From a virus, in IMG/VR virus record IMGVR_UViG_3300031463_000006, positions 3,925 through 67,924 of that record: 64,000 bases of DNA. One strand, 5' to 3'. The translations under genes were made by a program, and so were the position numbers. This document shows, in pieces, positions 22,630 through 64,000 of the stretch. Each line of letters begins with the position of its first letter. Position 1 is the stretch's first letter. The notes under the pieces were generated by a model, which saw only the letters and a list, made by a program, of their open reading frames with translations, was not told the origin of the DNA and ran no database searches.

Positions 22630-23847
22630 CTATTGAGCTAATGCTATTGCGTCGGCGGCGCCTTCTCGCGTCAATGCACCGCCACCTCGTACTTTGCGCA
22701 ATCGATCTATTGCTTGCTGCATCGTAAGATGTTCTGGACCAAGTCGCATCGCCATCGCAGCAATAATCGCAGAACGATTCATACCGCGCAAACACGTTAC
22801 AAACACGCGCTTCCCAAGTGCTCGTTGTTCGTTTACCCATCGTGCCGCATCGCGTGCGATAAGTGCATCGCGCAAACTCACAGGATCGTCGTACATCGGA
22901 GCATGATACACTTCGACGCCAGGAAACTTCTCATCTGGCGCTTGATACTCAACTGCCGCAAGCACAATTGCATCAAAGTAACGACCGATCTCAACGCCCT
23001 TTGGCGGCGCAGATCCAACCCACAAGCCTTCGGCCACTTGCGCCGCGTCAAATGGCATCGGATGCGATTCGCGTTCTCGTTGCGGCAATCGTTGTCGGCG
23101 TGCAACACGAATCTGCGCTTGCGTTTCTTCAGGCGTCGGCCATGGCAATCCAACCGCCTGCACAACTTCGGGCGGTGCAACGGGTCGCGGCGCCGATATC
23201 CCGAGATCAAGCGCGTGTAGGTATTCGCTTGCAGCTCGCGCAAACTTCGCAATCGAATCGTAGTTCTCTTCGATTGCGCGTCGTTGTTCTGGCGACGTCG
23301 GCTTGTACACGGCATGCTGCCATTGCGCAAATGCGTCGGCATGCTTGGTTCGTAGCTGCACTTCCTTCGCCAACCCATCGTCATCGATCACCGTGACGTG
23401 TCGCGCTCGATAACCAATCTCATTTGGCGCGTCGAACATATCGTCATCGTCAACAACGTCGAACTCGTCATGCAGTACACGTGCGGCCGCATCCACATCA
23501 TCGAGCGTATCAACAACAACCGATGCGCCCGTTACATCCTCAAGCTTTTCGGGTTCGTCGTACTTGTCAGCACGACGCGGTAACTTCTCGAGCATCGAAT
23601 GCAACGTCTTGAGTCGCACGCCAACTTTGGCATCAGGAAACAACTCGCGCAGTCGGCGCAGAAATGCCTCGGCCGATTTCGCATGCTTGCGCTGCACTCG
23701 TTTGGCTTCATTTTCAAGCGTATCCGCATCGCCATCAAGCTCATCATCTTCGATTGCGCTGCGTACCTTGTTACGAGCAACATCAAGCTCACGGTCGGCA
23801 ATCTCGTCGGCCAATACACCACGCGCCCAAGTCGTTAGCTTGCTCAT
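22630..23847 (-). CDS. RelA/SpoT-like nucleotidyltransferase fused to a dual-specificity (CX5R) phosphatase
   Basis: 'RLKTLHSMLEKL', 'LEDVTGASVV', 'GYRARH' and 'EVQLRT' (SYNTH motifs); C-terminal 'VTCLRGMNRSA' with upstream 'PMYDDP'. Confidence 0.85.
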   Translation of the reverse strand: MSKLTTWARGVLADEIADRELDVARNKVRSAIEDDELDGDADTLENEAKRVQRKHAKSAEAFLRRLRELFPDAKVGVRLKTLHSMLEKLPRRADKYDEPEKLEDVTGASVVVDTLDDVDAAARVLHDEFDVVDDDDMFDAPNEIGYRARHVTVIDDDGLAKEVQLRTKHADAFAQWQHAVYKPTSPEQRRAIEENYDSIAKFARAASEYLHALDLGISAPRPVAPPEVVQAVGLPWPTPEETQAQIRVARRQRLPQRERESHPMPFDAAQVAEGLWVGSAPPKGVEIGRYFDAIVLAAVEYQAPDEKFPGVEVYHAPMYDDPVSLRDALIARDAARWVNEQRALGKRVFVTCLRGMNRSAIIAAMAMRLGPEHLTMQQAIDRLRKVRGGGALTREGAADAIALAQ

Positions 23848-29980: not shown

Positions 29981-32752
29981 TTACCGCGCCATGAGCGATG
30001 CTGCCAAGCCCGGTCGCAATCCACCCGCACCTGCCGCATGCGATACACCGGCCGTCAGCCCCATGGCTCGTGCTTGTTCTCTTGCCAACCATGATGCCAT
30101 CAACACGTCATCAACGTGCGCATCAGGCTGATAATACAAACACGCATCAACCCATCGTTGCACATTTGGATGGCATCTTCCTGCGTGATCGCACGGAATA
30201 ATCCACGCGCCATTCTGAATCTCGACGAACAAACTTTCGACACCATATTCCGGGTGCGCTTTGTTTCTTCCAGTTGTGTGTGCTTTGATCGGCACACTCG
30301 CATTCTGCGCACGCGCAAACTGCAAGATATAATCTTGCGCGTTATGTACGATGTAATCTTCGACAACATACGATTCGTCTTCTTCAACGATCAAGTTGTA
30401 CACCGGACCATCATACTTCTCAACCACACCTGGTTCCGGTTGCAATATGCTCGCCCATACACCTTTGTCATCGATCGCAAACTTCGAGTTCGAAGCGTGT
30501 TTGCGAGTTACATACGGCGCCCATTGCACATCTTCGATCTCGCTCGTGAATGTTTCGCACAATCGAAACGCATCATCGGCGTACAACGAAAGCGTGTAAA
30601 TCGAACGATCGACAACGCCAGGCTTGATGTATCGATACGAGCTTTCATTATCCATTGTCAGCATCGCACGGCAACCAAATTCGAATAGCGTCGTTCGTGC
30701 AAACAATATCCAATTGCGCGATATACTGATGCCGGAAATCTCATGCAATAACATATTTGTCGAGCGCATACATCCGGCTCCCATGAGCCAACCGCGCACC
30801 ATTGCAAGTCGTTGTGCTAGCGGCCAGCCAAACAATGGGATCGGTGGACACTTTGCATCGCCAACACCGAACGCGCCAAACATGTCTGCAATTGCCGCAC
30901 CATCTACGCGGAAGACGAAATCGTCAATTTGTTCGCAGCTAGCGTTGCGAGTTATGTCGTACAACACCGAACGAACAAACTCTGCAAGATGCGACTCGTG
31001 TCGCCCGAATATAAATCGAACTTGATGATCTACAACTTCCCCTCGCGCCATGAATAGCCCAAGCAATAGCGCTTCGCGCTCACCAACAGACACGTCAACG
31101 CTGCCGACATGCAATACCGGGTCGACCGCTGGCCAACACGGAACCGCAAGCCCTGCATAGGCCGGGCGGTCACGTAGCCCAAGCGAAATCCATGTCGCCT
31201 CGCCAACCAGCCTACGATATTCCAACCCGTCGTGCTCGGCTTCGCGCAACCAGAACCAGTGATTCGGCGTCGTCACAACCGGCAAAGAACCATACGCTCG
31301 AGCCGTACAAACGGCGTGAGCAACACCGGCGACCCGTTCTAGGACTCGGCGCCAGCGGCCACGATGCGTCCACACCTCGGTGCCAGGCGTAACCAGTTCG
31401 ATGGGAACATAGCCGTTCTTCGTCAGCACGCGCGTTCCCGGAACAAAGCACGAATTGTTCTCAACCCGAGCAATCGATTTATATCGTTCGCACTTCTCGA
31501 TGATCTTGCGAACGATTGTAGGTGCATCCCATTGCCCGAACTCGACGTCGAGAATGAGCCGCTTCCCGTCGGGCAAACACTCGGCCGTGAACAACGCCGT
31601 CAAGTCGTGCTGCGCGCCTTTGCCTACCGCGAGGTCAACCCCGGTCACGGTAACGTTTGAGCCCGTGTACTCGCTAACCAGCGTGCGACCCTTGCCTTGC
31701 TCTTTACAACGCTCAATCCAATCGATCTTGCAACGAGCCGTTTCGTCGTTACGGCAGACGCACATATAAAGTTGATTATATCGATGCGGCAAGTGCTTTG
31801 TACGCAATCGTTCAATCTCATCCCAGTCATAGCGTTCTGGCCAAAGCGGCACGTTCTCGGTAATAACTTCGCCGCGTTCGTTGCGCGCCTCATTGTGCGC
31901 CGTCAATCTGTACACTTCGCCAGGGCGTGCACTCGGAACAATATCCGAACTATCCCAATCTGGGCAATTCGATAGCTTGATGTTGCCCTCAATATCCATG
32001 GTCAGTGTCGGCCAACCAGCGGCTTCCAATCGATATGTGATATCGTCGGGCGACCATGGCGTGTTCGTTACGACAAGTCTTCCTTTATGCGGATCGATAC
32101 GCGATAGCACCGATGAATCGAACCACTCATGAACCTTGTGCAACCCGGCTGTCGTACTCGTGTTCTCGCGGTCAAGTATGTCATCCACAACCGCCCATGA
32201 AAGACGGGACCCCGCGATTGCACCGTCAATGCCTACTGCCACAAGCGACGGGTCGCGAATTGCCGGAGGTCGATCAACCGTGATCTCCGTCTGCGTCCAA
32301 GGGTCGGTCTTACGAACCGATTTGCGTAGCCGAGGAAACACAAGCCGCAACTCATGGCTGGCTTCGATCAAGTCGCGCACCATAGCAAGCGGCTTCATGG
32401 CCTGACCTTGCGTCGCGCTAACCAAGGCACCGCGGCTTGCCGGGTCGCGCCCGAGAAAGTGCAACCCAAGTGTCGCCATGCAGAACGTCTTGCTTGTGCC
32501 GACCGGCATGCGCACAACACAGAACCTATGCGCCTCGACGAAATCAAACAACACTCGTTGATGCGGTGCAATTACAAGTTCCGCGTTTGTATGTTCTTCG
32601 CGCATCACGAAGCCAAAGAATTCTTTCACATCGGAACGTGCACGTTCAGCTACCCATTCAAGATGCGCAACAAGTAGCTCACTTTCTTCGATCGCTTTCG
32701 GATCGATGCCGACTCCTGCAACAATTTCTTGGTACCTATCGCCTTGCATCAT
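29981..32752 (-). CDS. terL: Terminase large subunit containing an intein
   Basis: Walker A-like 'MPVGTSKT', Walker B 'AVVDDILD', 'NTPWSPDD', 'LWPERY'; nuclease motifs 'GVDLAVG' and 'DDVLMA'. Confidence 0.92.
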   Translation of the reverse strand: MMQGDRYQEIVAGVGIDPKAIEESELLVAHLEWVAERARSDVKEFFGFVMREEHTNAELVIAPHQRVLFDFVEAHRFCVVRMPVGTSKTFCMATLGLHFLGRDPASRGALVSATQGQAMKPLAMVRDLIEASHELRLVFPRLRKSVRKTDPWTQTEITVDRPPAIRDPSLVAVGIDGAIAGSRLSWAVVDDILDRENTSTTAGLHKVHEWFDSSVLSRIDPHKGRLVVTNTPWSPDDITYRLEAAGWPTLTMDIEGNIKLSNCPDWDSSDIVPSARPGEVYRLTAHNEARNERGEVITENVPLWPERYDWDEIERLRTKHLPHRYNQLYMCVCRNDETARCKIDWIERCKEQGKGRTLVSEYTGSNVTVTGVDLAVGKGAQHDLTALFTAECLPDGKRLILDVEFGQWDAPTIVRKIIEKCERYKSIARVENNSCFVPGTRVLTKNGYVPIELVTPGTEVWTHRGRWRRVLERVAGVAHAVCTARAYGSLPVVTTPNHWFWLREAEHDGLEYRRLVGEATWISLGLRDRPAYAGLAVPCWPAVDPVLHVGSVDVSVGEREALLLGLFMARGEVVDHQVRFIFGRHESHLAEFVRSVLYDITRNASCEQIDDFVFRVDGAAIADMFGAFGVGDAKCPPIPLFGWPLAQRLAMVRGWLMGAGCMRSTNMLLHEISGISISRNWILFARTTLFEFGCRAMLTMDNESSYRYIKPGVVDRSIYTLSLYADDAFRLCETFTSEIEDVQWAPYVTRKHASNSKFAIDDKGVWASILQPEPGVVEKYDGPVYNLIVEEDESYVVEDYIVHNAQDYILQFARAQNASVPIKAHTTGRNKAHPEYGVESLFVEIQNGAWIIPCDHAGRCHPNVQRWVDACLYYQPDAHVDDVLMASWLAREQARAMGLTAGVSHAAGAGGLRPGLAASLMAR
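30341..31450 (-). mobile_element. Intein (370 aa) with degenerate LAGLIDADG homing endonuclease
   Basis: Starts CFVPGTRVLT; block B 'TTPNHWFW'; LAGLIDADG-like 'LLGLFMARG' and 'VRGWLMGAG'; ends 'VYNLIVEEDESYVVEDYIVHN'. Confidence 0.92.
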
Positions 32753-37449: not shown

Positions 37450-37572
37450 GGTACCAATCCCTCAAGTACACAGTCAAGGATCGCTCGTAACCCCACGAAT
37501 ATTGTGCGAATAATGTTGTGTGCGCCGCGGTGGTACCAATCCCTCAAGTAAACAGTCAAGGATCGCTCGTAA
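37450..37572. repeat. Two 41-bp direct repeats (1 mismatch), 82-bp period
   Basis: ggtaccaatccctcaagta(c/a)acagtcaaggatcgctcgtaa at 37450 and 37532. Confidence 0.9.
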
Positions 37573-37646
37573 GCCCGCGAAACAACGCAAGTTCTCGCGC
37601 GCGCGCGGAACGCGCGAAGCGCCGCGCGGTGGGGGTCGCGAGAGAC

Positions 37647-38227
37647 GATGTTTCGTGCACGAAATATTAGGATAGGAACGGAAGCAGGTAAGGGGAAGGC
37701 GATGCTGAGCGTTCTGAATATTCAGAATGGAAGGGATGCAGGTAAGGGGAAGCAGGTAAGGGGAAGGCGATGCTGAGCGTTCTGAATATTCAGAATGGAA
37801 GGGATGCAGGTAAGGGGAAGCAGGTAAGGTGGGCGCGTGTGTTGGGGCGCGTGTGTTGGGGATGTAGGTATGGGGGAAGACGATATTTCGTGTACGAAAC
37901 ATTAGGATAGGAACGAATGCAGGTAAGTGGGAGCAGGTAAGTGGGAGCAGGTATGCTTGGGGCGCGTGTGTTGGGGAGCGTATGCTTGGGGCGCGTGTGT
38001 TGGGGATGTAGGTATAGGGGGAAGGTAGAGGGGGATGTTTCGTGTACGAAACATTAGGATAGGAACGAATGCAGGTATGGTGTGGAGGCTGGAATGGTGT
38101 GGGAGCTGGGATGGGGGAACTTGTAACCGGGGCTGATATGTTGGGGCGGGTATGGGTGGAGCAAGTGATATGGGGTATGGGTATTCGAGCGCGACGCGGA
38201 TAGATGTTTCGTGTGCGAAGGATTAGG
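37647..38227. repeat. Purine-skewed repeat region: four palindrome-containing ~34-bp motifs plus a 68-bp tandem duplication (possible origin or packaging region)
   Basis: gat(g/a)tttcgtg(c/t)acgaaa(t/c)attaggataggaacg at 37647, 37882 and 38034, degenerate copy at 38203; 68-bp units at 37681 and 37749 each carry ttctgaatattcagaa. Confidence 0.85.
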
Positions 38228-48456: not shown

Positions 48457-48777
48457 TCAACCGATAAAGTTACCGTCAAGCCTCCGGCCATACAGTGATG
48501 GCGCGTTAATACCTCGTTGTATGACTACATCGTGCTCCGTCAGCACCGTAACAAGTGCCGATAATCCTCGCGTCGATGGTATAACAACAAATCTCAATCG
48601 AATTGGCTTTCCAGATCTCCACAACTGCGCTTTGTTATCTAGATTCTTAACATAATGCGCACGCTCCGACAATTGAATCAACTCTCCCAGTCCTTGTTCG
48701 TATGTCAAACCAGGACGCACGCGCATAATGTATCGTCGTACCGCATGCGGAGTAATGAACCATCGTCCAGGAATCAT
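48457..48777 (-). CDS. Hypothetical protein, possible RelE-like fold
   Basis: 'ITPHAVRRY..R' start and 'LVTVL' end. Confidence 0.4.
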   Translation of the reverse strand: MIPGRWFITPHAVRRYIMRVRPGLTYEQGLGELIQLSERAHYVKNLDNKAQLWRSGKPIRLRFVVIPSTRGLSALVTVLTEHDVVIQRGINAPSLYGRRLDGNFIG

Positions 48778-50267
48778 TCATCGCCTTTCAACCGATTCAT
48801 CATTACATCGTATGCTTTGCGAAGTGTACGACGCGAATAAGCATGCGCAATCCAATCCCAAGGAAGCGGCGCGTCTGGATCCAACTCGCCATATCCTACA
48901 CCGGCAATTTCCGCCGCGACATCGGGCGTGACTCTGCGTTCGCCAAGCGCCTCGAGCAAGTCGACTCCACGCCGATCTGAACGCGCAAGCACTGTACACA
49001 CCTTCGCCACGTCATCGGTGCGCCCGGCATGCTGACGAATGCACACCCACGACAGATCCTCAACACCACGTATCGTGGCAGCTAAGCGCCGAGCACCACC
49101 ACCGCACGAGCACCATTGCATCGGCGTTCCCGGTAACGGCTGAAACGGCTGCCAGTGCAACGACAAATTGCGCGCTATTTTACCTCTTCGTCTGTAATCA
49201 AGCTCTATAAGCACTCGCATAAATGCAATTGGATCATCTGCAGTTTGGCCAGGCAATCCAGCAATCATGTGCCATGCAAGCCGTCCTTTCCCATCGCCTT
49301 CTGTTCGATCCATTATGGAAAGCGTACTATCGATGAGTCGTTCGTCTGTCAAATATCCCTTCCCAATTGCACGACGCACACGTTCTGTCATGCCTTCTAC
49401 ACCAAAGGCGTATCGCTTGTTCGCAACAATCGGCTCGTCACCTTCGATGCTATCGAGCCTACCGGTCCAACCATTGTCTACCGCCGCACGTTCTCGCAGC
49501 GCAGCCCGAATCGCCGTGATTCCAGAATGGGATTCGGCATCTCCGGCCTGCAAATGCAACTGCCGCGGGCTCATCTTTATCGCCGAAATGATTGCGTCAG
49601 TTGAATTTTCACGCAACGGAGCACGCCAACCAAGCCCACAAAACAAGCACTTGTGACGGCAATTTCGGGCAATCTCTATACGGCGCAAGCTGGTCAAGTT
49701 TACTCGAACGTCTGCACGCAAAGTAATCCCTATGTCTTGCGAAACCGATTGCACAATCGTTGCTTCGCCTGGAACATGATATGCTGGGACAAGCACGCCA
49801 GGAATTGTCGAGCACTCGGCAAGGAATCCTGGCGTGCGATGATGACGTTCCCACGCACCAAGAATAGCTGGCAGCGGTTCTTCCGCATCGCCAACCACAA
49901 TCACATCAGCGATGTCGTAGTATGGCATCGGATTATGCAATCCTTGACCTCCGGCGATAACCCACGGATGATTCGGTCCACGTTGTTGACGACGCATGGG
50001 TATCTTCCAAGCACGAAAGTGTTTAGAAGTCTCCATCATCAAACGCGAATCGAGCACCGAGATCATGATTGCATCAACACCACTTGGGCGTCGTTCCTCT
50101 TCTGCTACCATGCGTAGGCCATAGGGACGACCAATCGCTTCAACAACCGCAAGCGGAAACGCCAATCCGTGGTGCTTAACAATCCGCTCTACTCGTTCAA
50201 TTTGATTCCACGCACCAAGTGAAGAAGCAAATGCCAACATTACTTTCTGAATTGTTTGCGCAACCAA
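48774..50267 (-). CDS. Radical SAM protein with B12-binding-like N-terminus
   Basis: 'CRHKCLFC' (CxxxCxxC), 'IAGG...NPMP...GDAEE', 'FQPLPGTP' and 'PLPWD'. Confidence 0.85.
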   Translation of the reverse strand: MVAQTIQKVMLAFASSLGAWNQIERVERIVKHHGLAFPLAVVEAIGRPYGLRMVAEEERRPSGVDAIMISVLDSRLMMETSKHFRAWKIPMRRQQRGPNHPWVIAGGQGLHNPMPYYDIADVIVVGDAEEPLPAILGAWERHHRTPGFLAECSTIPGVLVPAYHVPGEATIVQSVSQDIGITLRADVRVNLTSLRRIEIARNCRHKCLFCGLGWRAPLRENSTDAIISAIKMSPRQLHLQAGDAESHSGITAIRAALRERAAVDNGWTGRLDSIEGDEPIVANKRYAFGVEGMTERVRRAIGKGYLTDERLIDSTLSIMDRTEGDGKGRLAWHMIAGLPGQTADDPIAFMRVLIELDYRRRGKIARNLSLHWQPFQPLPGTPMQWCSCGGGARRLAATIRGVEDLSWVCIRQHAGRTDDVAKVCTVLARSDRRGVDLLEALGERRVTPDVAAEIAGVGYGELDPDAPLPWDWIAHAYSRRTLRKAYDVMMNRLKGDE

Positions 50268-50860
50268 TCAACTGCAACGTCAAGCCGATTCTGATTGAGC
50301 TCGCACCCGCGAAATCGCCCGCCAAGCCGATGCGTATGGCGAGCCGTAACACCTTTTCCAGTGCATGGATCAAGCACAATCATTCCTGGAAGCACCACCG
50401 CAGACAACACTGCCTTTGTTAATGCCGGGCCATGCTTGTCGGGAAGATTGATCGAAATATCTCGTGAGCCATATAGTGTCAACGTATATGGACGCATAGG
50501 CGAACCTTTGAGGTTCTCCCATATACGTTGCCTGACAAGTCCAACTTTTTGCATGGCCAAATCCAAATCACGAAGCCCTTGCACTCCCATCTCTACAAAT
50601 ACCGGTGCATCCGGCGTACGAAATGAAGCGCAAACATCGCAAAAAGCATTGAGAAATTCGGCCCACGATGTTCGCCGCGCCGACCCGTTGATGCTGTACC
50701 AATACTTATGATGTTTCTCGTCGGATGGTGGATTGCTATAAATTACGTCTGCGCGTTCCGAACCCATCAATTCTGCAACGGCGCCGGTCGTAATATCAGC
50801 ATGCATCAATCGATGCAATCGGCGAGGGCCAACATTGAAAATCATTGCATCGGAAGTCAT
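50240..50860 (-). CDS. Small SAM-dependent DNA methyltransferase-like protein (variant NPPS)
   Basis: 'DVIYSNPPS', 'VLDPCTGKG' and 'GCELN'; ATGA-coupled to csf3. Confidence 0.75.
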   Translation of the reverse strand: MTSDAMIFNVGPRRLHRLMHADITTGAVAELMGSERADVIYSNPPSDEKHHKYWYSINGSARRTSWAEFLNAFCDVCASFRTPDAPVFVEMGVQGLRDLDLAMQKVGLVRQRIWENLKGSPMRPYTLTLYGSRDISINLPDKHGPALTKAVLSAVVLPGMIVLDPCTGKGVTARHTHRLGGRFRGCELNQNRLDVAVDWLRKQFRK

Positions 50861-51507
50861 GGCACTGCAATCTCACACTCATTAGGGTTAAGCCGACCCG
50901 GATACGGATACGTCAAGTTTCCATATCCGATGTTCGGATCAACTAGCCCGGGCCAATCGAGCGGAAGATTGCGCAGGGCTTTCCCGTCGCGCACGACCGG
51001 GAACCCGTCCCACGTGTCGCACGGCTCCACAATCCACTCCGCCACTTGTCCGAGCCCCACCGCTCGCTTCTTCCCGAGCCCCATACACATCTCGACAAGC
51101 GATCTTATCTCCGCCTCGTCGCCGATGCACCACCACGTCAACATATCGTCGACGAGATAAACCGTGTCGAGCGGAAACCGATACGACTTCGTGCGCCCGC
51201 TTTTCGTCGAGAAACGACGCAACCTGGGGCCGCCAAACATTTGCGCTTCTTCGACTGGAAATCTACGGTTGATTCGATGCATTCGATGCCGTTCAATCTG
51301 CGCGACGCTGAACGATGCAAGGTGGAACCGTCCCTTCGGCTCACGTTGCACGGGAATTTCTATCCGCACTACCTCTTCGGGGCATGTTGCAGGATGAATA
51401 TTATCGCGCAATGCTACTTGTGCCGCGAGCAACGAATCAAGCGCAATCGGCCCGTTCGGCATCGCAATCGCCCCATTAATTCTTGCCTGTACTCGTAGCG
51501 GTTTCAT
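50857..51507 (-). CDS. csf3: Type IV CRISPR Csf3 (Cas5-family RAMP)
   Basis: 'IALDSLLA', G-rich 'GLGKKRAVGLGQVAEW' and 'RNLP'. Confidence 0.85.
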   Translation of the reverse strand: MKPLRVQARINGAIAMPNGPIALDSLLAAQVALRDNIHPATCPEEVVRIEIPVQREPKGRFHLASFSVAQIERHRMHRINRRFPVEEAQMFGGPRLRRFSTKSGRTKSYRFPLDTVYLVDDMLTWWCIGDEAEIRSLVEMCMGLGKKRAVGLGQVAEWIVEPCDTWDGFPVVRDGKALRNLPLDWPGLVDPNIGYGNLTYPYPGRLNPNECEIAVP

Positions 51508-52496
51508 GCGTCCACCCTCAACAAGAATTCGCGTAGACGTTCTGCACGATCGGCAACATGCCGACGAAACAAAGCTCCAACACGCGGTGCTAGCGATGCG
51601 ACGTCCAGATCGTTCGCCGCATCGCGCGGCCTCGTGAGCGTAATCTGTCTCGCCGTAATAGCCCTGACGCGGCCATGTCCCGTCCCCGACTTTCCTCCAA
51701 CGACCGCGTTGCTCAAAAACGCCATCACAGTCGTATTGAAGGTGTCGACGTCGAGTTCATTCATCAACGTTGCACCGATTGTCCAGTAAAACAAGCTACC
51801 AGCCTTCACTCGCTCGAACCGACGCGGCATGTTTGTCGACTTCTCCTTGTCGCGCTCCGCGTCGTCGGCTTCTTCGCTCGCCTTCTCGCTCAGCCGCAAT
51901 CGCTCGTTGACAGCGACCTGCGCCCCCTCCGTCAACAGCACCCGTTTCTGCGGGTCCAGCACCGGGTCCATGCGTACTCGCTGCACGCTCTCGATGTGCT
52001 TGCGCGCCGGTGCCGTCGTCGCCCCCACGGTCGAGATGTACTCTGCCACCCATCCAGGAAGTACATGCATCGTCTCGTCCGCGATCAGCAACGCTTCGGA
52101 CACCTGTAGACGCCCTGGAATGCAACGGTTCTGCGCGCATCCACCGAACAACGCGAGCGGAGGAATCAGCTCGCAGAGCTCGCGGTAGATGTCGAGCTTC
52201 ACCGCACCGCCGGCAGAGCCAGTGATCATGCCTCCTGCGAACAACAGGCGCAAAGCCTCTTCGCTGAGCGTGCTGCCGAGCAGTCCGGCCGCGTCGAGCA
52301 GCGCGTAGGTGCTCGCCTCCCGTAGCTTGTGCCGCATCGTGTCTCCGCTGATGATCGGTACATGTGCAAAGCTTCCGTTCGGTTGCCTCACTTCCGTTCG
52401 CATCAAGAATGATTCATTGCCGATCGTTCCCTCCGAGTGACAAATCGGTTGTTGTGCTTCAAGAATGAACTCATACCTTTTCTGTTCCATGTGCAT
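51504..52496 (-). CDS. csf2: Type IV CRISPR Csf2 (Cas7-family backbone)
   Basis: 'PICH..G..GN', 'VPIISGDTMRHKLR', 'LFAGG', 'PPLALFGG', 'GRLQV' and 'VGGKSGTGHG'. Confidence 0.92.
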   Translation of the reverse strand: MHMEQKRYEFILEAQQPICHSEGTIGNESFLMRTEVRQPNGSFAHVPIISGDTMRHKLREASTYALLDAAGLLGSTLSEEALRLLFAGGMITGSAGGAVKLDIYRELCELIPPLALFGGCAQNRCIPGRLQVSEALLIADETMHVLPGWVAEYISTVGATTAPARKHIESVQRVRMDPVLDPQKRVLLTEGAQVAVNERLRLSEKASEEADDAERDKEKSTNMPRRFERVKAGSLFYWTIGATLMNELDVDTFNTTVMAFLSNAVVGGKSGTGHGRVRAITARQITLTRPRDAANDLDVASLAPRVGALFRRHVADRAERLREFLLRVDA

Positions 52497-52869
52497 CCTC
52501 CCTATGTTCGCGATCCCGACGCTCTTCTACTGTCTTCCGCGCCATTGCAATCAGCAGCCCGTATTCGCGCTCCACCATATCTAGCCACTCGGCCGCTGCT
52601 CCAAGCTCACGCACGTGGTCAGCGAGCTCGAGCAAACAGGTCGAGCTGAGTAGGGATGGAGCGGCCTTGATCTGCAACGTCCTGAGCATGGTCGTGTACC
52701 ACTCCTCCGGGCTCTCGCTTGTCCGCACAGCTCCCCTCATCCGGTCCGACAACTGCGTCCAGTGCTTGATCGCATTCGCTCCCTGCGCCAGGTACGCCGC
52801 CCGGATCGACAACAACACCTCGACTGTTTCGGTTCGCAGCTTTTCTTTTTCCTTTTCGTTTAGCTTCAT
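52471..52869 (-). CDS. cas11: Type IV-B small subunit (Cas11/Csf4-like)
   Basis: 132-aa all-helical ORF between csf1 and csf2, with GGAGG RBS. Confidence 0.65.
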   Translation of the reverse strand: MKLNEKEKEKLRTETVEVLLSIRAAYLAQGANAIKHWTQLSDRMRGAVRTSESPEEWYTTMLRTLQIKAAPSLLSSTCLLELADHVRELGAAAEWLDMVEREYGLLIAMARKTVEERRDREHREDAHGTEKV

Positions 52870-53674
52870 CAGCTTGCCTCCTTGCTACTTGTTCCTCATC
52901 TCGCTGCGCGAGCCACAATGCCAGCGAGAACCACGCTCCGCCTCGGAGCCGACCCCAGCGGCGCTCGAACTCCTCGATCTCTGCGCGCGCACGCTCCCAC
53001 TCCCCGGCCACGTACTCTCCCGTCTCCATCGCCCCCTTCGTCGCGCCCGCCGTCAGCGCTTTCGCCGCGTCGTCAACGATGCTCCACCCCATTGTATCGC
53101 GTGGCAGTTCGACGCGAGCTTCCTCAAACATGACGATCCCGCGCAGCGATCCGCTTGGGTTCACTGGCGTGAACGGCACCACGTGTTTCTGCCCCGAATC
53201 CGCGATCGCAGCGAACCACGGGCCCTTGTGCGGTCTACGAAGGAAGCTGAGAATCTTCGGCTTCTCCGCCTTGGTCGCGTTGTCGTAGTACCCCGCATCA
53301 TATAGATGCGAGTAGTTGCGGAACGATCCTCCGTGCGGATTCTTTCCGGTTCCCTCACAATGCGCGCACGACTCGCGCTTCCCAGGCTCGCCTCTGCACT
53401 TCGAACATGGGCCTGCTTCGCGCCCAGGCACCGAAGACACCCTGGCGCAAATGTATACGCACGCAGGACAAACATGCCTCGAGGCCGGCGATGCAACGCG
53501 GTTGGCCGCTGTGAAATTTTCTCCGAGCCACTTGTCTATTGGCACTCCAGCGTTGATGTACTCACCGCACATCCAGCATCTGTTGCTTCCTTTGCCAAAG
53601 AGAATGGCTTCGAGAGGGACACCAATATCTGGATATCCCATGCACTCGTATAGCAACTGTGGCGCAGTTTTCAT
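52619..53674 (-). CDS. csf1: Type IV CRISPR Csf1 (Cas8-like large subunit)
   Basis: 'CWMCG...NFT...VCPAC', 'RNYSHL' and 'IADSGQKHVVP..PVN'. Confidence 0.82.
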   Translation of the reverse strand: MKTAPQLLYECMGYPDIGVPLEAILFGKGSNRCWMCGEYINAGVPIDKWLGENFTAANRVASPASRHVCPACVYICARVSSVPGREAGPCSKCRGEPGKRESCAHCEGTGKNPHGGSFRNYSHLYDAGYYDNATKAEKPKILSFLRRPHKGPWFAAIADSGQKHVVPFTPVNPSGSLRGIVMFEEARVELPRDTMGWSIVDDAAKALTAGATKGAMETGEYVAGEWERARAEIEEFERRWGRLRGGAWFSLALWLAQRDEEQVARRQADEAKRKGKRKAANRNSRGVVVDPGGVPGAGSECDQALDAVVGPDEGSCADKREPGGVVHDHAQDVADQGRSIPTQLDLFARAR

Positions 53675-54712: not shown

Positions 54713-55468
54713 TTACCCTCGCCCAGGAAACAAAGGCAGTTGACCGGCCCGCAATGCTGCAAGCGTCATGTTGTTCTCGGTCGCAATACATCGCTCACGC
54801 GCAATGTTTGCCCATCGCGGTTCCTTCTCGATCAAAATACATCGCCGTCCTTGCTGCACGGCCGCAACGCCAGTAGTACCAGCCCCAGCGAAAGGATCGA
54901 GCACAACTTCGTCGGGGTCGGTAAACAATGAGATCAACTCGAGCATCAACGAAACCGGTTTCTGTGTCTCGTGCTCGCGACACTCGGCGGCGTGCTTGCT
55001 ATGAATGAACACGCCCGCGCGCCCGCCACCATTCCACCTCGACTTGCCGCGAGCATGACAACAAACAATCGATTCATATCCCATTGCAGGGCGGTCACCA
55101 CTGAATTGTGGCGTCGGATCTGGCTTTACCCAAATCGCAGTGCGTCGATACGACATCGACGATAACACTTCTCGCCACAACATTGCGGCTTCAACTTGAC
55201 AGAAAACAAGCGCCCAACGCCGTGTCAATCTTGCGATTTGAAGCCCAAACAATGATCGCATTTCTTGCGTCATCGGTTCGAACGCAAGGCTCTCGTTCTC
55301 GTTGCCAAGTTTCGTTCGCTGCTTGGTATGCGCTTCAACTTCGTATGGCGGATCTGTGATTACGTGGTCAACGCAAGTAGCAGGCAATGCCGGCAAAATG
55401 CTCGCGCTATCGCCGGTAATAACGGTCCAACGCGCGCGGCCCTCGAGCACTGCTAGTGCGTCATCCAT
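54713..55468 (-). CDS. N6A/N4C DNA methyltransferase (beta class)
   Basis: 'ITDPPY', 'HETQKP' and 'LDPFAGAGTT'; likely start MDDAL at 55468. Confidence 0.92.
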   Translation of the reverse strand: MDDALAVLEGRARWTVITGDSASILPALPATCVDHVITDPPYEVEAHTKQRTKLGNENESLAFEPMTQEMRSLFGLQIARLTRRWALVFCQVEAAMLWREVLSSMSYRRTAIWVKPDPTPQFSGDRPAMGYESIVCCHARGKSRWNGGGRAGVFIHSKHAAECREHETQKPVSLMLELISLFTDPDEVVLDPFAGAGTTGVAAVQQGRRCILIEKEPRWANIARERCIATENNMTLAALRAGQLPLFPGRG

Positions 55469-57428
55469 TAGACACACCGATCGTAGAACCAGAATCCCCC
55501 GCCTGCACAACCAAACATGCGGGAAGACCATCAAGCACATCGCGATCGTGCGCCACGACAAATGCTTGCTCGAACCCGTGTCGACCGCGCAGCATGCTTA
55601 CAAGATGCGTCGCGAAAGCACGTCGGTTGGCTTCGTCGAGGGCGCCAAACGGCTCGTCGATGAGCGCAACCGACCAGCTAACATCCCGATTGCGCCGCAA
55701 CCACGATGCCGCCGAAAGCTGAAGCGCCGCGCCTGCAAGATCCTCCGCGGCCCCGCTACGATCGCTTAGCTCGACGTCGAGCCGGTCCATAACCTTTGGG
55801 CCACGCTCAGCTCCACAACGGGGGCATTGCTTGACACGTGTCGACGGGGGAAACGGAGCCCCACACTCACCGCACCATGCGGCAAGGCCAACGCCTTCTC
55901 GGCCCCATAGCACACGGACCTCGAGCGCAATGCCGGCTTCCCGAAGCACCTCGTTCGCGCCGGCTTCGATCTCGCCAAGGGCAGTCTCGGCAATGCGTCG
56001 CTGTGCACCCTGCCGACCAAAGATGCGCAACGCTGCACGTGCAACTCGTTCCTCGTCGGCAATGGTCGCAAGCTGCGTAACTACTTCAGCAAGCTCGGCA
56101 TGCAATTGAGTCATCAGTTCAATTGCATGCTGCACTTGTTCAACTTTGGCCTCGGCTACCGCAAGCTCGCGTTGCGCCGCTTGGGCAGAATCTCGCAGCG
56201 CATTAACTTCCGAAGCTTTGATTTGCGGCGCATGTTTGGCAACTTCAACCGCCGATTTGAGTGCGCTAGCTTGTTGACGCAATGAATCTCGCTGCGCCAC
56301 AAGCCGCACCAATCGATCACGATTACTTGCAGCACTTTCTACGTCTAGTCGCGCGGCGGCTTCTGCGCGGCAAGCCTCGTCGTATTGCACTGCGGCGTCA
56401 TCGTGCAGTTGCCGATTCCGATCCATCGCCGCATTGATCTGATGCGCCGCAGGACAGGCAATACCTGCAACGGGGCAACGACCATCAAACTCACCACGCG
56501 CCAAAGAGCGTTTTTGTTTCAGATTCTCAGCCGCTTGCACTACAGCCGCACGCAATTGCATCAACTGTTCGCGCGCTTCCTTTTCTTTCGCGTCGGTGCC
56601 GGATAGCTCAGCGATTTGACGATTCAATTCCTTTCCTTTGGCAACAATACGATCAAACTCGGCTGCTTGTTCTATCGTGCGCCGAATTTCTTCTTGTTGC
56701 GCAAGCATAGCTTGCGCCTCATCGACCTTCACTTTCGCGGCTTCTACGTCTCGACGCGCTTGTTCGTAACTTGCTTCGAGATGTTTCTTCAATTCATCGT
56801 CATCGACAGAAACTGCACCATACTCTGAAGCCAATCGTTGCAATTGCGCTTCCAACGCCGTGCGTTTTGTTCGCAGATCCGAAGCCTTTATCGAAAGCGT
56901 CGATAGCTTCCCGCGCACGTTCTCTTCACACCGCTGCAACGGCGCCAACCCAAACCAGCCAGACATCAGGTCGAACCGTTCCGACGGCCGTGCAAGCACA
57001 AGACGCGCAAGCTGCTTCTGTCCGAACCAGCACGTTACCTCGAAATCGTCTTTGTCGAATCCAACAACTCGATTCAAGAGATCCTGCGCATCATCGCCAA
57101 CCGAGAACCCGCCCGGCCCTTCAACCGTCAACTGCGTCACACGGCCGCGCTTGCGTTCGCGACGAATAATCCAACCATTATCCGTCACCAACTCAACAAA
57201 TCCACTCTCTTTGTCGCGCGTAATCCAACCATCTTCGCGTGCGGCTCGATGCACTCCAAACAACGCGAATCGTATCGCTTCAACGAATGACGTCTTCCCA
57301 GACCAGTTTGAACGCCGCTTATCATCGGCGTATTGCCCCACGATGCCGTAAATCGTTCCGTCCAACGATATCGAATGCTCGCCGGCATAACGAAGCCAAT
57401 TCAGCAATCGAATTCGCTCAAGGCGCAT
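55461..57428 (-). CDS. sbcC: SbcC/Rad50/gp46-like ATPase
   Basis: Walker A 'SNWSGKTS', Q-loop, coiled coil, Walker B 'LIDEPFGALD' and H-loop 'VAHD'. Confidence 0.9.
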   Translation of the reverse strand: MRLERIRLLNWLRYAGEHSISLDGTIYGIVGQYADDKRRSNWSGKTSFVEAIRFALFGVHRAAREDGWITRDKESGFVELVTDNGWIIRRERKRGRVTQLTVEGPGGFSVGDDAQDLLNRVVGFDKDDFEVTCWFGQKQLARLVLARPSERFDLMSGWFGLAPLQRCEENVRGKLSTLSIKASDLRTKRTALEAQLQRLASEYGAVSVDDDELKKHLEASYEQARRDVEAAKVKVDEAQAMLAQQEEIRRTIEQAAEFDRIVAKGKELNRQIAELSGTDAKEKEAREQLMQLRAAVVQAAENLKQKRSLARGEFDGRCPVAGIACPAAHQINAAMDRNRQLHDDAAVQYDEACRAEAAARLDVESAASNRDRLVRLVAQRDSLRQQASALKSAVEVAKHAPQIKASEVNALRDSAQAAQRELAVAEAKVEQVQHAIELMTQLHAELAEVVTQLATIADEERVARAALRIFGRQGAQRRIAETALGEIEAGANEVLREAGIALEVRVLWGREGVGLAAWCGECGAPFPPSTRVKQCPRCGAERGPKVMDRLDVELSDRSGAAEDLAGAALQLSAASWLRRNRDVSWSVALIDEPFGALDEANRRAFATHLVSMLRGRHGFEQAFVVAHDRDVLDGLPACLVVQAGDSGSTIGVSNG

Positions 57429-62762: not shown

Positions 62763-64000
62763 TCAATGGCGCGGGCCAACCGCTTTCAGCGAAAACAGGC
62801 CCAACTGTTTCGTGTCGTCCTGCTCCTTCGGCGGCACTGCCGATATGGGGGCGGACGATACCACCACGACCGGCTGCCGAATACGCCGCGGACGAATTCG
62901 CGCGAACCGGCCGTCCCAATCCACAGCCGGAAAAGCTGCCTCGAGCAACCGAGCGGTCGGCGGCCAAACGTGTTTTTCCCACGCATCGATGCGATCAAAC
63001 TCGCCAGTCCAATCGCCTACTGGAGCAACAACACGTTCCGCACCATTCACGACAAAATAATCAATACGTGCGCCAACACCGACACCTTCTCCGCGCTCTG
63101 CCAACATAGCAGCAACGCGAACATGCGGAGGCAAATCACCAAATCCGCCGTTCTTCTTCTCACGAGGCACGTAATCTCCAACTGGGCGAGCCAATCGTTT
63201 CGACAGTTTCACATCATCGACTAACAATTGGCCTTCGAGAACAAGCGTTCGATATCGCTCAACAAGCGCAACAAACACTTCGGGATTCTCGGCGCATTCT
63301 TCACGACGCGACGTCTTGTACGCCGATTCATCAGCGCACGCAGGAATTTCAACACCGCCTCCCATAAGCAAATCGATCACCTCGGCCTGAAGACGACGTG
63401 CAAGCCGCATCGAATCGCCGCGCTTGTACTCCAAGCCCTTCACTTCCGGCTTGGATTCTTCATTCGCCGGCTCCCCCTTGTAATGCTCATACCGTCCGAT
63501 GTATCGCTTCGCGCCTACGAACAGAATGCGCTCAAACTTCTTTTCATACGCCAGCTTGATCGCATTCCGAATACAACCACGTTCCGCAACAAGACGAGGA
63601 TACAATTCTTCGTTGCAATGCGCTACAAATTCGCGCACACGCGCATCGCTAGCGCCCTGCAAAAACCCGGAATCGGTATCACCATAGACGGCCGTCATTC
63701 CCCACGACTTCGCCTCGTTTAACGTCTGTTCGATAAGCCAACGCGCAGTGCTCGTAATACTTTCGGCAACTCGTTTCTCATACAAGCGCGAAACTTGAGC
63801 GCCAACAACACCGAAAAAGCTATTTGCCGCGATCTTGTACGCAGTGCTTCGGCGCATAGCATCAACCCAGGCAGACGAACCAGGCGCAGCATGCGCCGCT
63901 TTCTCACTCCATTCTTTGCGCATGCGCAGCAACTCTTCCAAAGCAACCGCAAGCAACCCTCGAGGTTCGTTGACGAACAACATTCCATTCGATGGCACTT
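62763..64000 (-). CDS. polB: Family B DNA polymerase, C-terminal part (5' end outside the window)
   Basis: 'KIAANSFFG', 'YGDTDS', 'KRY' and 'KGLE..RGD'. Confidence 0.95.
   Translation of the reverse strand, partial: VPSNGMLFVNEPRGLLAVALEELLRMRKEWSEKAAHAAPGSSAWVDAMRRSTAYKIAANSFFGVVGAQVSRLYEKRVAESITSTARWLIEQTLNEAKSWGMTAVYGDTDSGFLQGASDARVREFVAHCNEELYPRLVAERGCIRNAIKLAYEKKFERILFVGAKRYIGRYEHYKGEPANEESKPEVKGLEYKRGDSMRLARRLQAEVIDLLMGGGVEIPACADESAYKTSRREECAENPEVFVALVERYRTLVLEGQLLVDDVKLSKRLARPVGDYVPREKKNGGFGDLPPHVRVAAMLAERGEGVGVGARIDYFVVNGAERVVAPVGDWTGEFDRIDAWEKHVWPPTARLLEAAFPAVDWDGRFARIRPRRIRQPVVVVSSAPISAVPPKEQDDTKQLGLFSLKAVGPRH

What the first reader, a model, noticed from the sequence alone, without database searches (positions are those of the whole stretch)
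48774..53674. Array-less type IV-B-like Csf complex in a phage, coupled to a methyltransferase and radical SAM enzyme instead of CysH
Seen: csf1, cas11-like, csf2 and csf3 overlap one another, then an ATGA-coupled NPPS methyltransferase and an overlapping radical SAM gene follow. No cas6, dinG, cas1/2, cysH or CRISPR array is visible in the window. The operon continues directly from the replication genes. Established: type IV-B loci usually lack arrays, carry a cysH-like gene and have unknown function. Inference: a repurposed Cascade-like ribonucleoprotein that directs or scaffolds nucleic-acid modification, or sequesters host crRNAs as an anti-CRISPR, with a new SAM-dependent accessory pair.
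Basis: partly seen in the sequence, partly recalled or inferred. Interest (0 to 1): 0.88.

Follow-up and report, generated by a model that had tools for sequence, protein, structure and literature searches.

The report
Phage type IV-B CRISPR, radical-SAM partner
An uncultured tailed phage carries a guide-array-less type IV-B CRISPR-like complex whose usual CysH-like helper enzyme is replaced by a radical SAM enzyme, a swap that recurs in related elements and, with a sliding-clamp docking peptide on the large subunit, gives testable clues to what this unexplained CRISPR subtype does.

Summary
On the minus strand, csf1, cas11, csf2 and csf3 are followed by a small beta-class methyltransferase, a radical SAM (rSAM) gene and a missed seventh gene, p106 (48457-48777). 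The 67.9-kb virus record has no cysH, Cas1, Cas6, DinG or CRISPR array.

The rSAM link is recurrent. Of 25 rSAM-seeded loci, 21 have csf genes beside the rSAM and 3 others are cut at a contig end. Of 42 Csf2-seeded loci, 39 carry a cysH-like gene and 1 the rSAM. No locus has both. On a quick Csf2 tree the swap needs at least 5 changes.

The "methyltransferase plus rSAM pair" is not conserved: 0 of 26 other rSAM loci have the methyltransferase. Its relatives sit beside cysH-like genes. They read DPPW or DPPY where this copy reads NPPS.

p106 models as a RelE/ParE-like fold and is fused to Cas6 proteins elsewhere. Csf1 ends in QLDLF. That pattern occurs only three times in the record, each near a C-terminus: PolB, a DNA methyltransferase and Csf1.

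Best reading: a clamp-tethered Csf ribonucleoprotein that brings an interchangeable modifying enzyme to replicating DNA. The mechanism is inferred.

This scan already found the rSAM-for-CysH swap on other DNA. My four paper searches on the rSAM link and on CasCysH found no report of it.

The parts
52619..53674 (-). csf1 (type IV large subunit, 351 aa). It has four invariant Zn-site cysteines. It also has a second CxxC...CxxCxGxG insertion, a Lys/Arg-rich tail and a C-terminal QLDLF.
   Evidence: PADLOC Csf1_0_IV 7.7e-30. TIGR03114 2.4e-11, below its cut-off. C33, C36, C69 and C72 are invariant in 35 sequences, and the insertion is shared by 5 of 35.
52634..52648 (-). QLDLF, a beta-sliding-clamp-binding-type pentapeptide, 4 residues from the Csf1 C-terminus. 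It lies inside the stretch that also encodes Cas11 in another frame.
   Evidence: One of only 3 QL.LF matches in all open frames of 80 aa or more in the record. All three lie 4-9 residues from a C-terminus. A strict Q[LIVM]x[LIVMF][FLYW] pattern is found in the last 28 residues of Csf1 in 23 of 49 loci.
52471..52869 (-). cas11 (small subunit, 132 aa). Its first 251 nt overlap the csf1 3' end in another frame.
   Evidence: No hit as a single sequence in Pfam, NCBIfam or PADLOC. A profile of 34 homologues hits 7jhy_h 'Csf4 (Cas11)' at E 2.3e-4. An overlap of 200 nt or more is seen in 39 of 49 loci.
51504..52496 (-). csf2 (Cas7 backbone subunit, 330 aa)
   Evidence: PADLOC Csf2_0_IV 1.3e-49. The family profile's best PDB hit is type IV-B Csf2 7jhy_e at 1.3e-16, against 3e-4 to 1e-3 for type IV-A Csf2 chains. 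651 homologues were found among the scored candidates.
50857..51507 (-). csf3 (Cas5 subunit, 216 aa)
   Evidence: PADLOC Csf3_0_IV 4e-29. TIGR03116 6.2e-13, below its cut-off.
50240..50860 (-). Small beta-class N6/N4-type methyltransferase (206 aa). Motif I (LDPCTGKG) is intact. Motif IV reads SNPPS instead of the family's SDPPW.
   Evidence: PF01555 8.1e-7 over residues 145-197. Alignment with 5 Csf-linked relatives. Motif IV in relatives: DPPW in 7, DPPY in 1, and NPPS only here.
48774..50267 (-). Radical SAM enzyme with an N-terminal Rossmann-like (B12-binding-type) domain. The open frame is 497 aa; the likely start at 50240 gives 488 aa. It occupies the CysH slot.
   Evidence: PF19864 1.6e-15 and PF04055 9.5e-7. 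The CxxxCxxC cysteines C203, C207 and C210 are invariant in 28 sequences. The model has pLDDT 88. Its nearest folds are the cobalamin-dependent rSAM methylases MgmA, TokK, TsrM and CysS, and MiaB/RimO, at TM about 0.5.
48457..48777 (-). p106, a small conserved accessory protein (106 aa; core about 78 aa). It has an invariant His11 and a modelled RelE/ParE-like fold.
   Evidence: The family occurs in 13 of 42 Csf2-seeded and 14 of 25 rSAM-seeded loci. Alignment A4. The model has pLDDT 78. Foldseek top hits are RelE, HigB, BrnT and Cami1 at E 0.07-0.5. VIA-align gives Z 8.5 for 6l7q, then ParE, RelE, BrnT and colicin D at Z 5-6.7. Fusions to Cas6 are seen.

Best explanation
What it is (shown, about 0.9): a phage-borne, array-less subtype IV-B-like CRISPR-Cas effector cassette, csf1-cas11-csf2-csf3. 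Its near-universal CysH-like accessory enzyme is replaced, in the same slot, by a dedicated radical SAM enzyme with a B12-binding-type N-terminal domain. Two facultative accessories accompany it. One is a small beta-class methyltransferase whose catalytic motif is altered here. The other is p106, a RelE/ParE-fold protein.

How it most likely works (inferred, about 0.35):
1. Csf2 and Cas11 polymerise on a short RNA, capped by Csf3 and Csf1. This is what the solved IV-B complex shows.
2. p106 takes the role, or shares the role, that Cas6-like proteins have in relatives. It would cut or hold the RNA that is loaded.
3. The flexible Lys/Arg-rich Csf1 tail ends in QLDLF and docks the particle on the host beta sliding clamp. 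The phage's own PolB and a DNA methyltransferase carry the same C-terminal peptide.
4. At replicating DNA the complex presents a nucleic-acid substrate to the accessory enzyme, which modifies it chemically. That enzyme is the rSAM here and a CysH-like ATP pyrophosphatase in most relatives.
5. The methyltransferase is an optional second writer.

The repeated exchange of CysH-like and rSAM genes on related Csf backbones implies that the two enzymes serve the same step.
For: Identity:
- HMM hits for Csf1, Csf2 and Csf3.
- The Cas11 and Csf2 family profiles both hit the type IV-B complex 7JHY best.
- No cysH, Cas1, Cas6, DinG or array in the record.

rSAM linkage:
- 21 of 25 rSAM-seeded loci have csf genes next to the rSAM. 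Three of the other four are cut at a contig end.
- 39 of 42 Csf2-seeded loci have a cysH-like gene (PF01507 confirmed on 3 of 3 tested), 1 has the rSAM and 2 are truncated.
- 0 of 27 rSAM loci have a cysH-like gene, including 10 with more than 2.7 kb of sequence beyond the rSAM.
- On a quick Csf2 tree of 46 rows the rSAM label needs 7 changes, at least 5 of them forced by well-supported branches.

rSAM chemistry:
- The CxxxCxxC motif is invariant.
- The fold matches class B rSAM methylases and MiaB-type RNA/protein modifiers.

Clamp tether:
- QL.LF occurs 3 times in 70,260 translated residues. Each match is 4-9 residues from the C-terminus of PolB, a DNA methyltransferase or Csf1.
- 23 of 49 Csf1 relatives keep a strict motif. 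I estimate about 1% per tail by chance, and several others carry near-variants.
- No phage clamp gene was found.
- QLxLF as the beta-clamp motif, and QLGLF as the E. coli Pol II tail, are recalled knowledge.

p106:
- RelE/ParE-like by Foldseek, VIA-align and the Atlas.
- Its distribution is near-complementary to Cas6-like genes: 22 loci with Cas6-like only, 11 with p106 only, 2 fused, 7 with neither, of 42.
- It is fused to Cas6 proteins of two families.

DNA context:
- The cassette follows PolB, a RecA-like gene, SbcCD-like genes, a DNA methyltransferase and a PD-(D/E)XK nuclease on the same strand.
- The Csf-linked methyltransferase belongs to the DNA N6/N4 family.

Literature: IV-B function is still described as unclear in 2026 (PMC13676074, passages read).
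Against: - No step of the mechanism is demonstrated. No binding, substrate or product is known.
- The nearest solved rSAM folds act on proteins, small molecules or tRNA, not DNA. TM is only about 0.5 and sequence identity 12-16%.
- The solved IV-B complex bound heterogeneous RNA, and DNA targeting has not been shown (PMC7937560 abstract; PMC8175902 passages).
- The clamp motif is a five-residue pattern. The loci are related, so 23 of 49 is not 23 independent events. Ten of 49 Csf1 proteins lack the long tail altogether.
- The p106 fold matches are weak (Foldseek E 0.07 or worse; most Z values under 8, a range the tool warns can be a common arrangement).
- One locus (L066) has p106 plus the rSAM with no csf gene within 9 kb. 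Two loci have the methyltransferase plus a cysH-like gene without csf. The enzymes can therefore exist without the complex.
- The window's methyltransferase reads NPPS and may be inactive.
- The record is only about 75% complete, so a cysH or an array in the missing quarter is not excluded.
- The tree is a quick, midpoint-rooted one with two very long branches.
Confidence: 0.5

Rival explanations
1. RNA modification, not DNA modification. The Csf filament assembles on a cellular or phage RNA and presents that bound RNA, or an RNA it base-pairs with, to the rSAM or CysH-like enzyme, much as tRNA and rRNA modifiers work. The clamp peptide would only localise or regulate the particle.
For: - The solved IV-B complex carries RNA (PMC7937560 abstract).
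- Among the nearest rSAM folds are MiaB bound to RNA, and RimO.
- PP-loop/PAPS-reductase-fold enzymes include many tRNA modifiers (recalled).
- p106 and Cas6-like partners are RNA-directed folds.
Against: - The accompanying methyltransferase family is the DNA N6/N4 type.
- The Csf1 tail motif is shared only with PolB and a DNA methyltransferase in this phage.
- The cassette sits in the DNA replication and recombination block.
Confidence: 0.2
2. Counter-defence sponge. The phage Csf complex captures host crRNAs or other guide RNAs and neutralises host CRISPR immunity. p106 or Cas6 would process them, and the enzyme would inactivate them.
For: - The idea is raised, and judged unlikely, in PMC7038947 (passages read).
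- The cassette is phage-borne and array-less.
- Relatives carry Cas6-like genes without arrays.
Against: - It gives no role to a clamp-binding tail, or to chemically demanding enzymes such as an rSAM.
- The host and its CRISPR content are unknown.
- This phage has no Cas6 at all.
Confidence: 0.12
3. Signal or small-molecule producer. On target recognition the accessory enzyme makes or alters a small molecule, for example a nucleotide-derived messenger, and does not modify a nucleic acid. The CysH-like and rSAM enzymes would be alternative generators.
For: - PMC13676074 (passage read) cites a proposal that CasCysH AMPylates substrates or makes second messengers.
- Most of the nearest rSAM folds act on small molecules or peptides.
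Against: - No sensor or effector gene is conserved downstream of the rSAM.
- Two unrelated enzyme folds are unlikely to make the same messenger.
Confidence: 0.08
4. The methyltransferase alone is unrelated cargo. It would be an ordinary phage anti-restriction DNA methyltransferase, possibly decaying, that landed between csf3 and the rSAM and has no functional tie to the complex.
For: - It is absent from 26 of 26 other rSAM loci.
- The phage carries at least two other N6/N4-type methyltransferase-like genes.
- Its motif IV is degenerate here: NPPS against DPPW or DPPY.
Against: - Homologues of this short family recur in the cassette neighbourhood. Nine of 10 methyltransferase-seeded loci have it beside a cysH-like gene, and 6 of 10 have csf genes.
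- In L025, L028 and the window it starts within about 60 nt of the csf3 end.
- It is translationally coupled on both sides here.
Confidence: 0.3

Closest known systems
Subtype IV-B CRISPR-Cas (csf1-cas11-csf2-csf3 plus a cysH-like gene), e.g. the Mycobacterium sp. JS623 Csf complex, PDB 7JHY (PMC7937560)
   Same: - Same four effector genes in the same order.
- Cas11 is present.
- No array, no adaptation genes, no helicase and no nuclease.
- It sits on a mobile element.
- The Csf2 and Cas11 profiles hit 7JHY best.
   Different: - The 'nearly invariant' cysH-like gene (PMC7038947) is absent, and an rSAM enzyme fills its slot.
- Extra genes are present: a methyltransferase and p106.
- Csf1 carries a second zinc-ribbon insertion and a clamp-type C-terminal peptide.
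- The host element is a tailed phage, not a plasmid.
Virus-borne type IV-B systems with CysH, e.g. 'Fuxiviridae' of Bathyarchaeia (PMC10848311)
   Same: A type IV-B cassette encoded by a virus, proposed to act in counter-defence or in conflicts between mobile elements.
   Different: - Those carry the CysH-like gene and a mini-array.
- This one has neither.
- It is a bacterial-type myovirus-like phage (tail-sheath domains).
Cobalamin-dependent (class B) radical SAM methylases (MgmA, TokK, TsrM, CysS) and methylthiotransferases (MiaB, RimO)
   Same: - An N-terminal Rossmann-like domain followed by the rSAM barrel with CxxxCxxC.
- These are the best structural matches.
- Pfam Radical_SAM_N2 plus Radical_SAM.
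   Different: - Only 12-16% identity and TM about 0.5.
- No invariant cysteine in the N-terminal domain, so no MiaB-type auxiliary cluster.
- Cobalamin binding is untested.
- A dedicated family of about 490 aa, found almost only beside csf genes in my sample.
RelE/ParE-superfamily (BECR-fold) RNases and DUF4258, including the RelE-like domain of the type III CRISPR accessory Cami1
   Same: - The p106 model has the helix-helix-four-strand order.
- Its best structural matches are RelE, ParE, HigB, BrnT, colicin D and Cami1, and DUF4258 by Atlas structure.
   Different: - No significant sequence match to any of them.
- No antitoxin-like partner.
- It is linked or fused to Cas6 and to Csf cassettes, not to toxin-antitoxin pairs.
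Type IV-A CRISPR-Cas with CasDinG
   Same: It shares the Csf1/Csf2/Csf3 core and the principle that a nuclease-free complex recruits an accessory enzyme.
   Different: - IV-A has DinG, Cas6/Csf5 and arrays, and no Cas11.
- None of these holds here.
- IV-A Csf2 structures match the profile far more weakly.

Membership tests
[quoted passage not shown] | Csf1 (large subunit), Csf2 (Cas7) and Csf3 (Cas5) encoded together | tested here: met
   PADLOC E-values 7.7e-30, 1.3e-49 and 4e-29. The NCBIfam equivalog models hit, but below their curated cut-offs.
Subtype IV-B | cas11-like small-subunit gene between csf1 and csf2 | tested here: met
   A profile of 34 homologues hits 7jhy_h Cas11 at E 2.3e-4. 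The single sequence has no library hit.
Subtype IV-B | No CRISPR array, no Cas6/Csf5, no DinG or RecD helicase, no adaptation genes | tested here: met
   on the 67.9-kb record. The record is about 75% complete, so absence is not proven for the whole phage. RecD was not searched.
Subtype IV-B | Adjacent cysH-like (PAPS-reductase-fold) accessory gene | tested here: not met
   No PF01507 match at E 1 or better anywhere in the record. 39 of 42 Csf2-seeded relatives have one.
Radical SAM superfamily | CxxxCxxC cluster motif in a Radical_SAM domain | tested here: met
   C203, C207 and C210 are invariant in 28 sequences. PF04055 scores 29.6 bits against a cut-off of 29.5.
Class B (cobalamin-dependent) radical SAM methylases | N-terminal cobalamin-binding Rossmann domain that binds cobalamin | not testable with these tools
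   The domain architecture and the best folds agree. Cofactor binding cannot be read from sequence here.
Methylthiotransferases (MiaB/RimO) | Three conserved N-terminal cysteines for an auxiliary [4Fe-4S] cluster | tested here: not met
   No invariant or nearly invariant cysteine before residue 203. The only other conserved cysteines are C386 and C424.
Beta-class N6-adenine/N4-cytosine DNA methyltransferases (PF01555) | Motif I (FxGxG-type SAM site) C-terminal to motif IV | tested here: met
   PF01555 scores 29.6 bits against a cut-off of 26.7 over residues 145-197. LDPCTGKG is invariant in the family.
Beta-class N6-adenine/N4-cytosine DNA methyltransferases (PF01555) | Motif IV (D/N/S)PP(Y/F/W) with an aromatic fourth residue | tested here: not met
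   The window reads NPPS. Seven relatives read DPPW and one DPPY. The role of the aromatic residue is recalled knowledge.
RelE/ParE (BECR-fold) RNases | Characteristic fold and catalytic basic or His residues | tested here: inconclusive
   Consistent but weak fold matches: Foldseek E 0.07 or worse; Z 8.5, then 5-6.7. Invariant His11 and conserved Arg19, Arg60 and Arg62. No sequence-level match.
Beta-clamp-binding proteins | QL[SD]LF-type pentapeptide at or near a terminus that binds the clamp | tested here: inconclusive
   The motif is present 4 residues from the Csf1 C-terminus. It is shared only with PolB and a DNA methyltransferase in this record, and is kept in 23 of 49 relatives. Binding itself is not testable here.

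The most novel reading that the evidence does not exclude
Type IV-B Csf complexes are replisome-tethered, RNA-loaded platforms that deliver interchangeable chemical 'writers' to newly replicated DNA. The writer is a CysH-like ATP pyrophosphatase or a B12-type radical SAM enzyme, sometimes with a methyltransferase. This would be an RNA-guided or RNA-scaffolded epigenetic modification system of phages and plasmids. A RelE-fold protein, p106, would act as a non-Cas6 way of producing the RNA that is loaded.
Probability: 0.22. Interest if true: 0.92.

Novelty: new variant of a known kind. Interest (0 to 1): 0.72.

Why it matters
Subtype IV-B is the one widespread CRISPR-Cas subtype whose function is still described as unclear in 2026 (PMC13676074). 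Thinking about it has centred on its CysH-like partner. If the partner can be swapped repeatedly for a radical SAM enzyme, the shared task is probably chemical modification of a macromolecule presented by the complex, not anything specific to PAPS-reductase chemistry.

The clamp-type tail on Csf1, shared only with the phage polymerase and a DNA methyltransferase, points to replicating DNA as the place of action. p106 and its fusions to Cas6 point to how RNA might be supplied without an array. Each clue can be tested directly at the bench with standard methods.

Tried and rejected
- Single-sequence scans of viral contigs with Csf2 and with the rSAM found no relatives. Alignment-based scans were needed.
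The long contigs behind the best protein hits, such as P0001 at 94% identity, could not be inspected.
- I looked for a CRISPR array with TRF and a k-mer chain script. The only chain is an exact 68-bp tandem duplication at 37680-37829, which is not a repeat-spacer array.
- No tRNA and no Rfam family were found. Promoter-like and terminator-like sites around the operon were no more frequent than in shuffles.
- I found no conserved gene downstream of the rSAM, except among near-identical contigs.
- Complex prediction with Csf1(1-264), Csf3 and the rSAM as partner returned 'no answer' with score 0.00. This is neither support nor evidence against binding.
- The rSAM profile against PDB sequences gave only RimO at E 4e-3. 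The p106 profile gave nothing meaningful.
- The profile of the relatives' Cas6-like family hit a Cas6 chain only at E 0.04. Its Pfam hits are marginal, so I call those genes 'Cas6-like'.
- GenBank phages have no close rSAM homologue, and only one distant Csf2, in Skermania phage SPI1 at 28% identity. PLSDB plasmids hold only TIGR03960-type rSAM proteins at 25-28% identity.
- Paper searches: 'type IV-B' + 'radical SAM' + 'CRISPR' found 2 papers, 1 listed and unrelated. 'Csf2' + 'radical SAM' found 2 unrelated papers. 'Csf1' + 'clamp' was swamped by the human CSF1 gene and is uninformative. 'CasCysH' found 2 papers.
Supplementary Data S1 of PMC7038947 may list IV-B loci without cysH, and I could not see it.
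- I considered the MiaB-type methylthiotransferase reading and rejected it, because there is no N-terminal cysteine triad.
- I rejected the reading that p106 is a broken Cas6 remnant. It is a separate 78-residue family that also stands alone in many loci.

Full report
**The record and the genes.** The window is bases 3925-67924 of a 67,924-base IMG/VR virus record. The record is classed linear and about 75% complete. It is a tailed phage. It has tail-sheath domains, a Hint-containing 923-aa ORF and family-B DNA polymerase. It also has SbcC-like and metallophosphoesterase genes, a RecA-like gene, a PD-(D/E)XK nuclease and N6/N4 DNA methyltransferases.

On the minus strand, straight after that replication and recombination block, lie seven coupled genes:
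- csf1, 52619-53674
- cas11, 52471-52869
- csf2, 51504-52496
- csf3, 50857-51507
- a 206-aa methyltransferase, 50240-50860
- a radical SAM gene, 48774-50267 (likely start at 50240)

**Identity of the effector genes.**
- PADLOC models give Csf1 7.7e-30, Csf2 1.3e-49 and Csf3 4e-29.
- The NCBIfam equivalogs hit, but below their curated cut-offs.
- The 132-aa gene has no library hit as a single sequence. A profile of 34 homologues hits the Cas11 chain of the type IV-B complex 7JHY at E 2.3e-4.
- The Csf2 profile hits 7JHY Csf2 at 1.3e-16. That is better than a Cas7c chain (3.5e-10) and type IV-A Csf2 chains (3e-4 to 1e-3).
- The record has no PAPS-reductase/cysH match, no Cas1 and no Cas6 by two Pfam families.
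- It has only a sub-threshold DEAD_2 hit, no repeat-spacer array, no tRNA and no Rfam family.

So the cassette meets every subtype IV-B criterion except the cysH-like gene. The literature calls that gene 'nearly invariant' (PMC7038947 passages) or 'strictly conserved' (PMC8175902 passages).

**Is the rSAM linkage real?** Csf2 has 651 homologues among the scored candidates, and the rSAM has 206 at 52-75% identity. I collected three sets of loci:
- 42 Csf2-seeded loci (29 viral, 13 from genomes)
- 25 rSAM-seeded loci (2 viral, 23 metagenomic)
- 10 methyltransferase-seeded viral loci, of which 5 repeat earlier contigs

I mapped nine families on all of them with HMMs built from the loci themselves.

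In the Csf2-seeded set:
- 39 of 42 have a cysH-like gene (PF01507 confirmed on 3 of 3 tested).
- 1 has the rSAM (L031).
- 2 are cut before that position.

In the rSAM-seeded set:
- 21 of 25 have csf genes directly beside the rSAM.
- 3 are cut at the contig end within 230 nt of the rSAM.
- 1 (L066) has p106 plus the rSAM with no csf gene in 9 kb on either side.

No locus has both enzymes. None of the 27 rSAM loci has a cysH-like gene, and 10 of them have more than 2.7 kb of sequence beyond the rSAM. Many rSAM contigs are short, which limits the negative.

I built a quick IQ-TREE of 46 Csf2 rows. Five duplicate rows were dropped, and loci without a Csf2 hit longer than 800 nt were left out. On this tree rSAM-type loci are scattered among cysH-type loci. 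The label needs 7 changes, at least 5 of them forced by starred branches. The label is not significantly clustered (71 of 500 shuffles are as low). The tree is midpoint-rooted, and L045 and L055 sit on very long branches.

**The rSAM enzyme.**
- Pfam gives Radical_SAM_N2 and Radical_SAM.
- The CxxxCxxC cysteines are invariant. No cysteine is conserved in the N-terminal domain. C386 and C424 are conserved later in the protein.
- The model (pLDDT 88) is closest to the cobalamin-dependent rSAM methylases MgmA, TokK, TsrM and CysS, and to MiaB/RimO. TM is about 0.5 and identity 12-16%.
- Its chemistry and substrate are unknown. A MiaB-type auxiliary cluster is excluded.

**The methyltransferase.** This is a short beta-class enzyme. 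Motif IV lies near the N-terminus and motif I near the C-terminus (PF01555). It is absent from all 26 other rSAM loci. In the methyltransferase-seeded scan, 9 of 10 loci carry a cysH-like gene next to it. Six of 10 carry csf genes. Two (L069, L077) have the methyltransferase plus a cysH-like gene without csf within 8 kb. Relatives read SDPPW (7) or DPPY (1). The window reads SNPPS. The gene is a recurrent optional member of the accessory set, and its catalytic motif is altered here.

**p106.** A 78-residue core is conserved, with invariant His11 and conserved Arg19, Arg60 and Arg62. It occurs in 13 of 42 Csf2-seeded loci and 14 of 25 rSAM-seeded loci. It usually lies directly upstream of the rSAM. 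In the window and in L062 it lies downstream.

Pfam finds nothing. The model (pLDDT 78) matches several RelE-type structures:
- Foldseek: RelE, HigB, BrnT and the RelE-like domain of Cami1, at E 0.07-0.5.
- VIA-align: 6l7q at Z 8.5, then ParE, PrpT, Cami1, colicin D, RelE and BrnT at Z 5-6.7.
- The Atlas adds a DUF4258 cluster by structure.

The family list is consistent, but the scores lie in a range the tools warn may reflect a common arrangement.

Twenty-four of 42 Csf2-seeded loci carry a Cas6-like gene. The support for that label is marginal PF10040 and PF01881 hits, a C-terminal glycine-rich loop, and a PDB Cas6 hit at only E 0.04. Cas6-like genes and p106 are nearly complementary: 22 loci have Cas6-like only, 11 have p106 only, 2 have both in one open frame, and 7 have neither. 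A search for longer proteins found 5 proteins with the p106 domain. Two carry the Cas6/Cmx6 family PF09559, confirmed for P0241 at 8.6e-37. I infer that p106 acts with or in place of Cas6 in handling the RNA. That Cas6 and RelE-type RNases are both metal-independent is recalled knowledge.

**The Csf1 tail.** Csf1 has four invariant zinc-site cysteines. It also has a second CxxC...CxxCxGxG insertion, shared by 5 of 35 aligned sequences. Its last 251 nt overlap cas11 in another frame. An overlap of 200 nt or more is seen in 39 of 49 loci. The tail is Lys/Arg-rich and ends in QLDLF.

In all open frames of 80 aa or more in the record (70,260 residues, six frames), QL.LF occurs three times. Each is on the coding strand, 4-9 residues from a C-terminus: PolB (QLGLF), the 282-aa DNA methyltransferase (QLPLF) and Csf1. 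A strict pattern is present in the last 28 residues of Csf1 in 23 of 49 loci, and several others carry near-variants. The 10 loci without the long tail lack it. No phage clamp gene was found. That QLxLF is the bacterial beta-clamp-binding motif is recalled knowledge, not a tool result.

**Mechanism.** Shown: gene content, linkage, mutual exclusivity and motif conservation. Inferred: the Csf particle is tethered by Csf1 to the host sliding clamp at replicating DNA, and it presents a nucleic acid to an interchangeable modifying enzyme. p106 or Cas6-like proteins would supply or hold the RNA.

Rivals are RNA modification, a crRNA sponge and a small-molecule signal. None is excluded. The complex prediction gave no answer.

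**Novelty.** Four paper searches on the rSAM link and on CasCysH found no report of an rSAM partner for type IV-B. My only search for a clamp-binding Csf1 was swamped by the human CSF1 gene and shows nothing either way. Supplements were closed.

This scan's earlier notes report the same rSAM-for-CysH swap on at least four other genomes: e1-5324816, e1-5963271, e1-5963270 and e1-3434310. I re-derived it independently here.

Specific to this window:
- the methyltransferase inserted between csf3 and the rSAM, with its altered motif
- the rSAM-then-p106 gene order
- the three-protein QLxLF set

Noticed in passing
window 54713-55561 and 62763-63998 (minus strand): The 282-aa N6/N4 DNA methyltransferase ends ...QLPLFPGRG and the PolB fragment ends ...QLGLFSLKAVGPR. 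With Csf1 these are the only three QL.LF matches in the record. This suggests a set of clamp-docked phage proteins.
   Followed up: partly
window 52619-52869: A 251-nt dual-coding stretch. It encodes the Csf1 tail in one frame and the first 83 residues of Cas11 in another. An overlap of 200 nt or more is kept in 39 of 49 related loci.
   Followed up: partly
window 37450-38114: A non-coding, repeat-rich region with an exact 68-bp tandem duplication and G-rich 14-bp microrepeats. GC skew changes sign in the 38-40 kb bin. It may be an origin or a packaging region.
   Followed up: no
window 22630-23847: A 405-aa protein joins a RelA/SpoT synthetase-type domain (1.8e-14) to a dual-specificity phosphatase domain (weak, 1.9e-4).
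   Followed up: no
window 29981-32752: A 923-aa ORF contains a Hint domain at residues 435-492. This fits an intein inside a large structural or packaging gene.
   Followed up: no
L066:8674-12196: p106 and the rSAM stand without any csf gene within 9 kb. They are followed by an HNH-type nuclease and lie beside a C5 cytosine DNA methyltransferase.
   Followed up: partly
L069:7708-10810 and L077:8037-9361: The Csf-linked methyltransferase family sits next to a cysH-like gene with no csf gene in the 8 kb on either side. In L069 a p106 gene is also present.
   Followed up: no
L025:5050-6174, L043:704-1747; proteins P0241, P0244: The p106 domain is fused to the C-terminus of Cas6-type proteins of two different families.
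   Followed up: partly
L080 (Skermania phage SPI1, KR011061.1, Orf40-44): A cultured actinophage has an unannotated run of five 'hypothetical' genes. Its Orf42 matches Csf2 at 28% identity over 97% of the query. It may be a type IV-B cassette in an isolate.
   Followed up: no
L006, L008-L011 (and L071-L073): One group of phage contigs carries two cysH-like genes, and the methyltransferase in three of them. It has neither Cas6-like nor p106, and its Csf1 lacks the long tail and the QLxLF motif.
   Followed up: no
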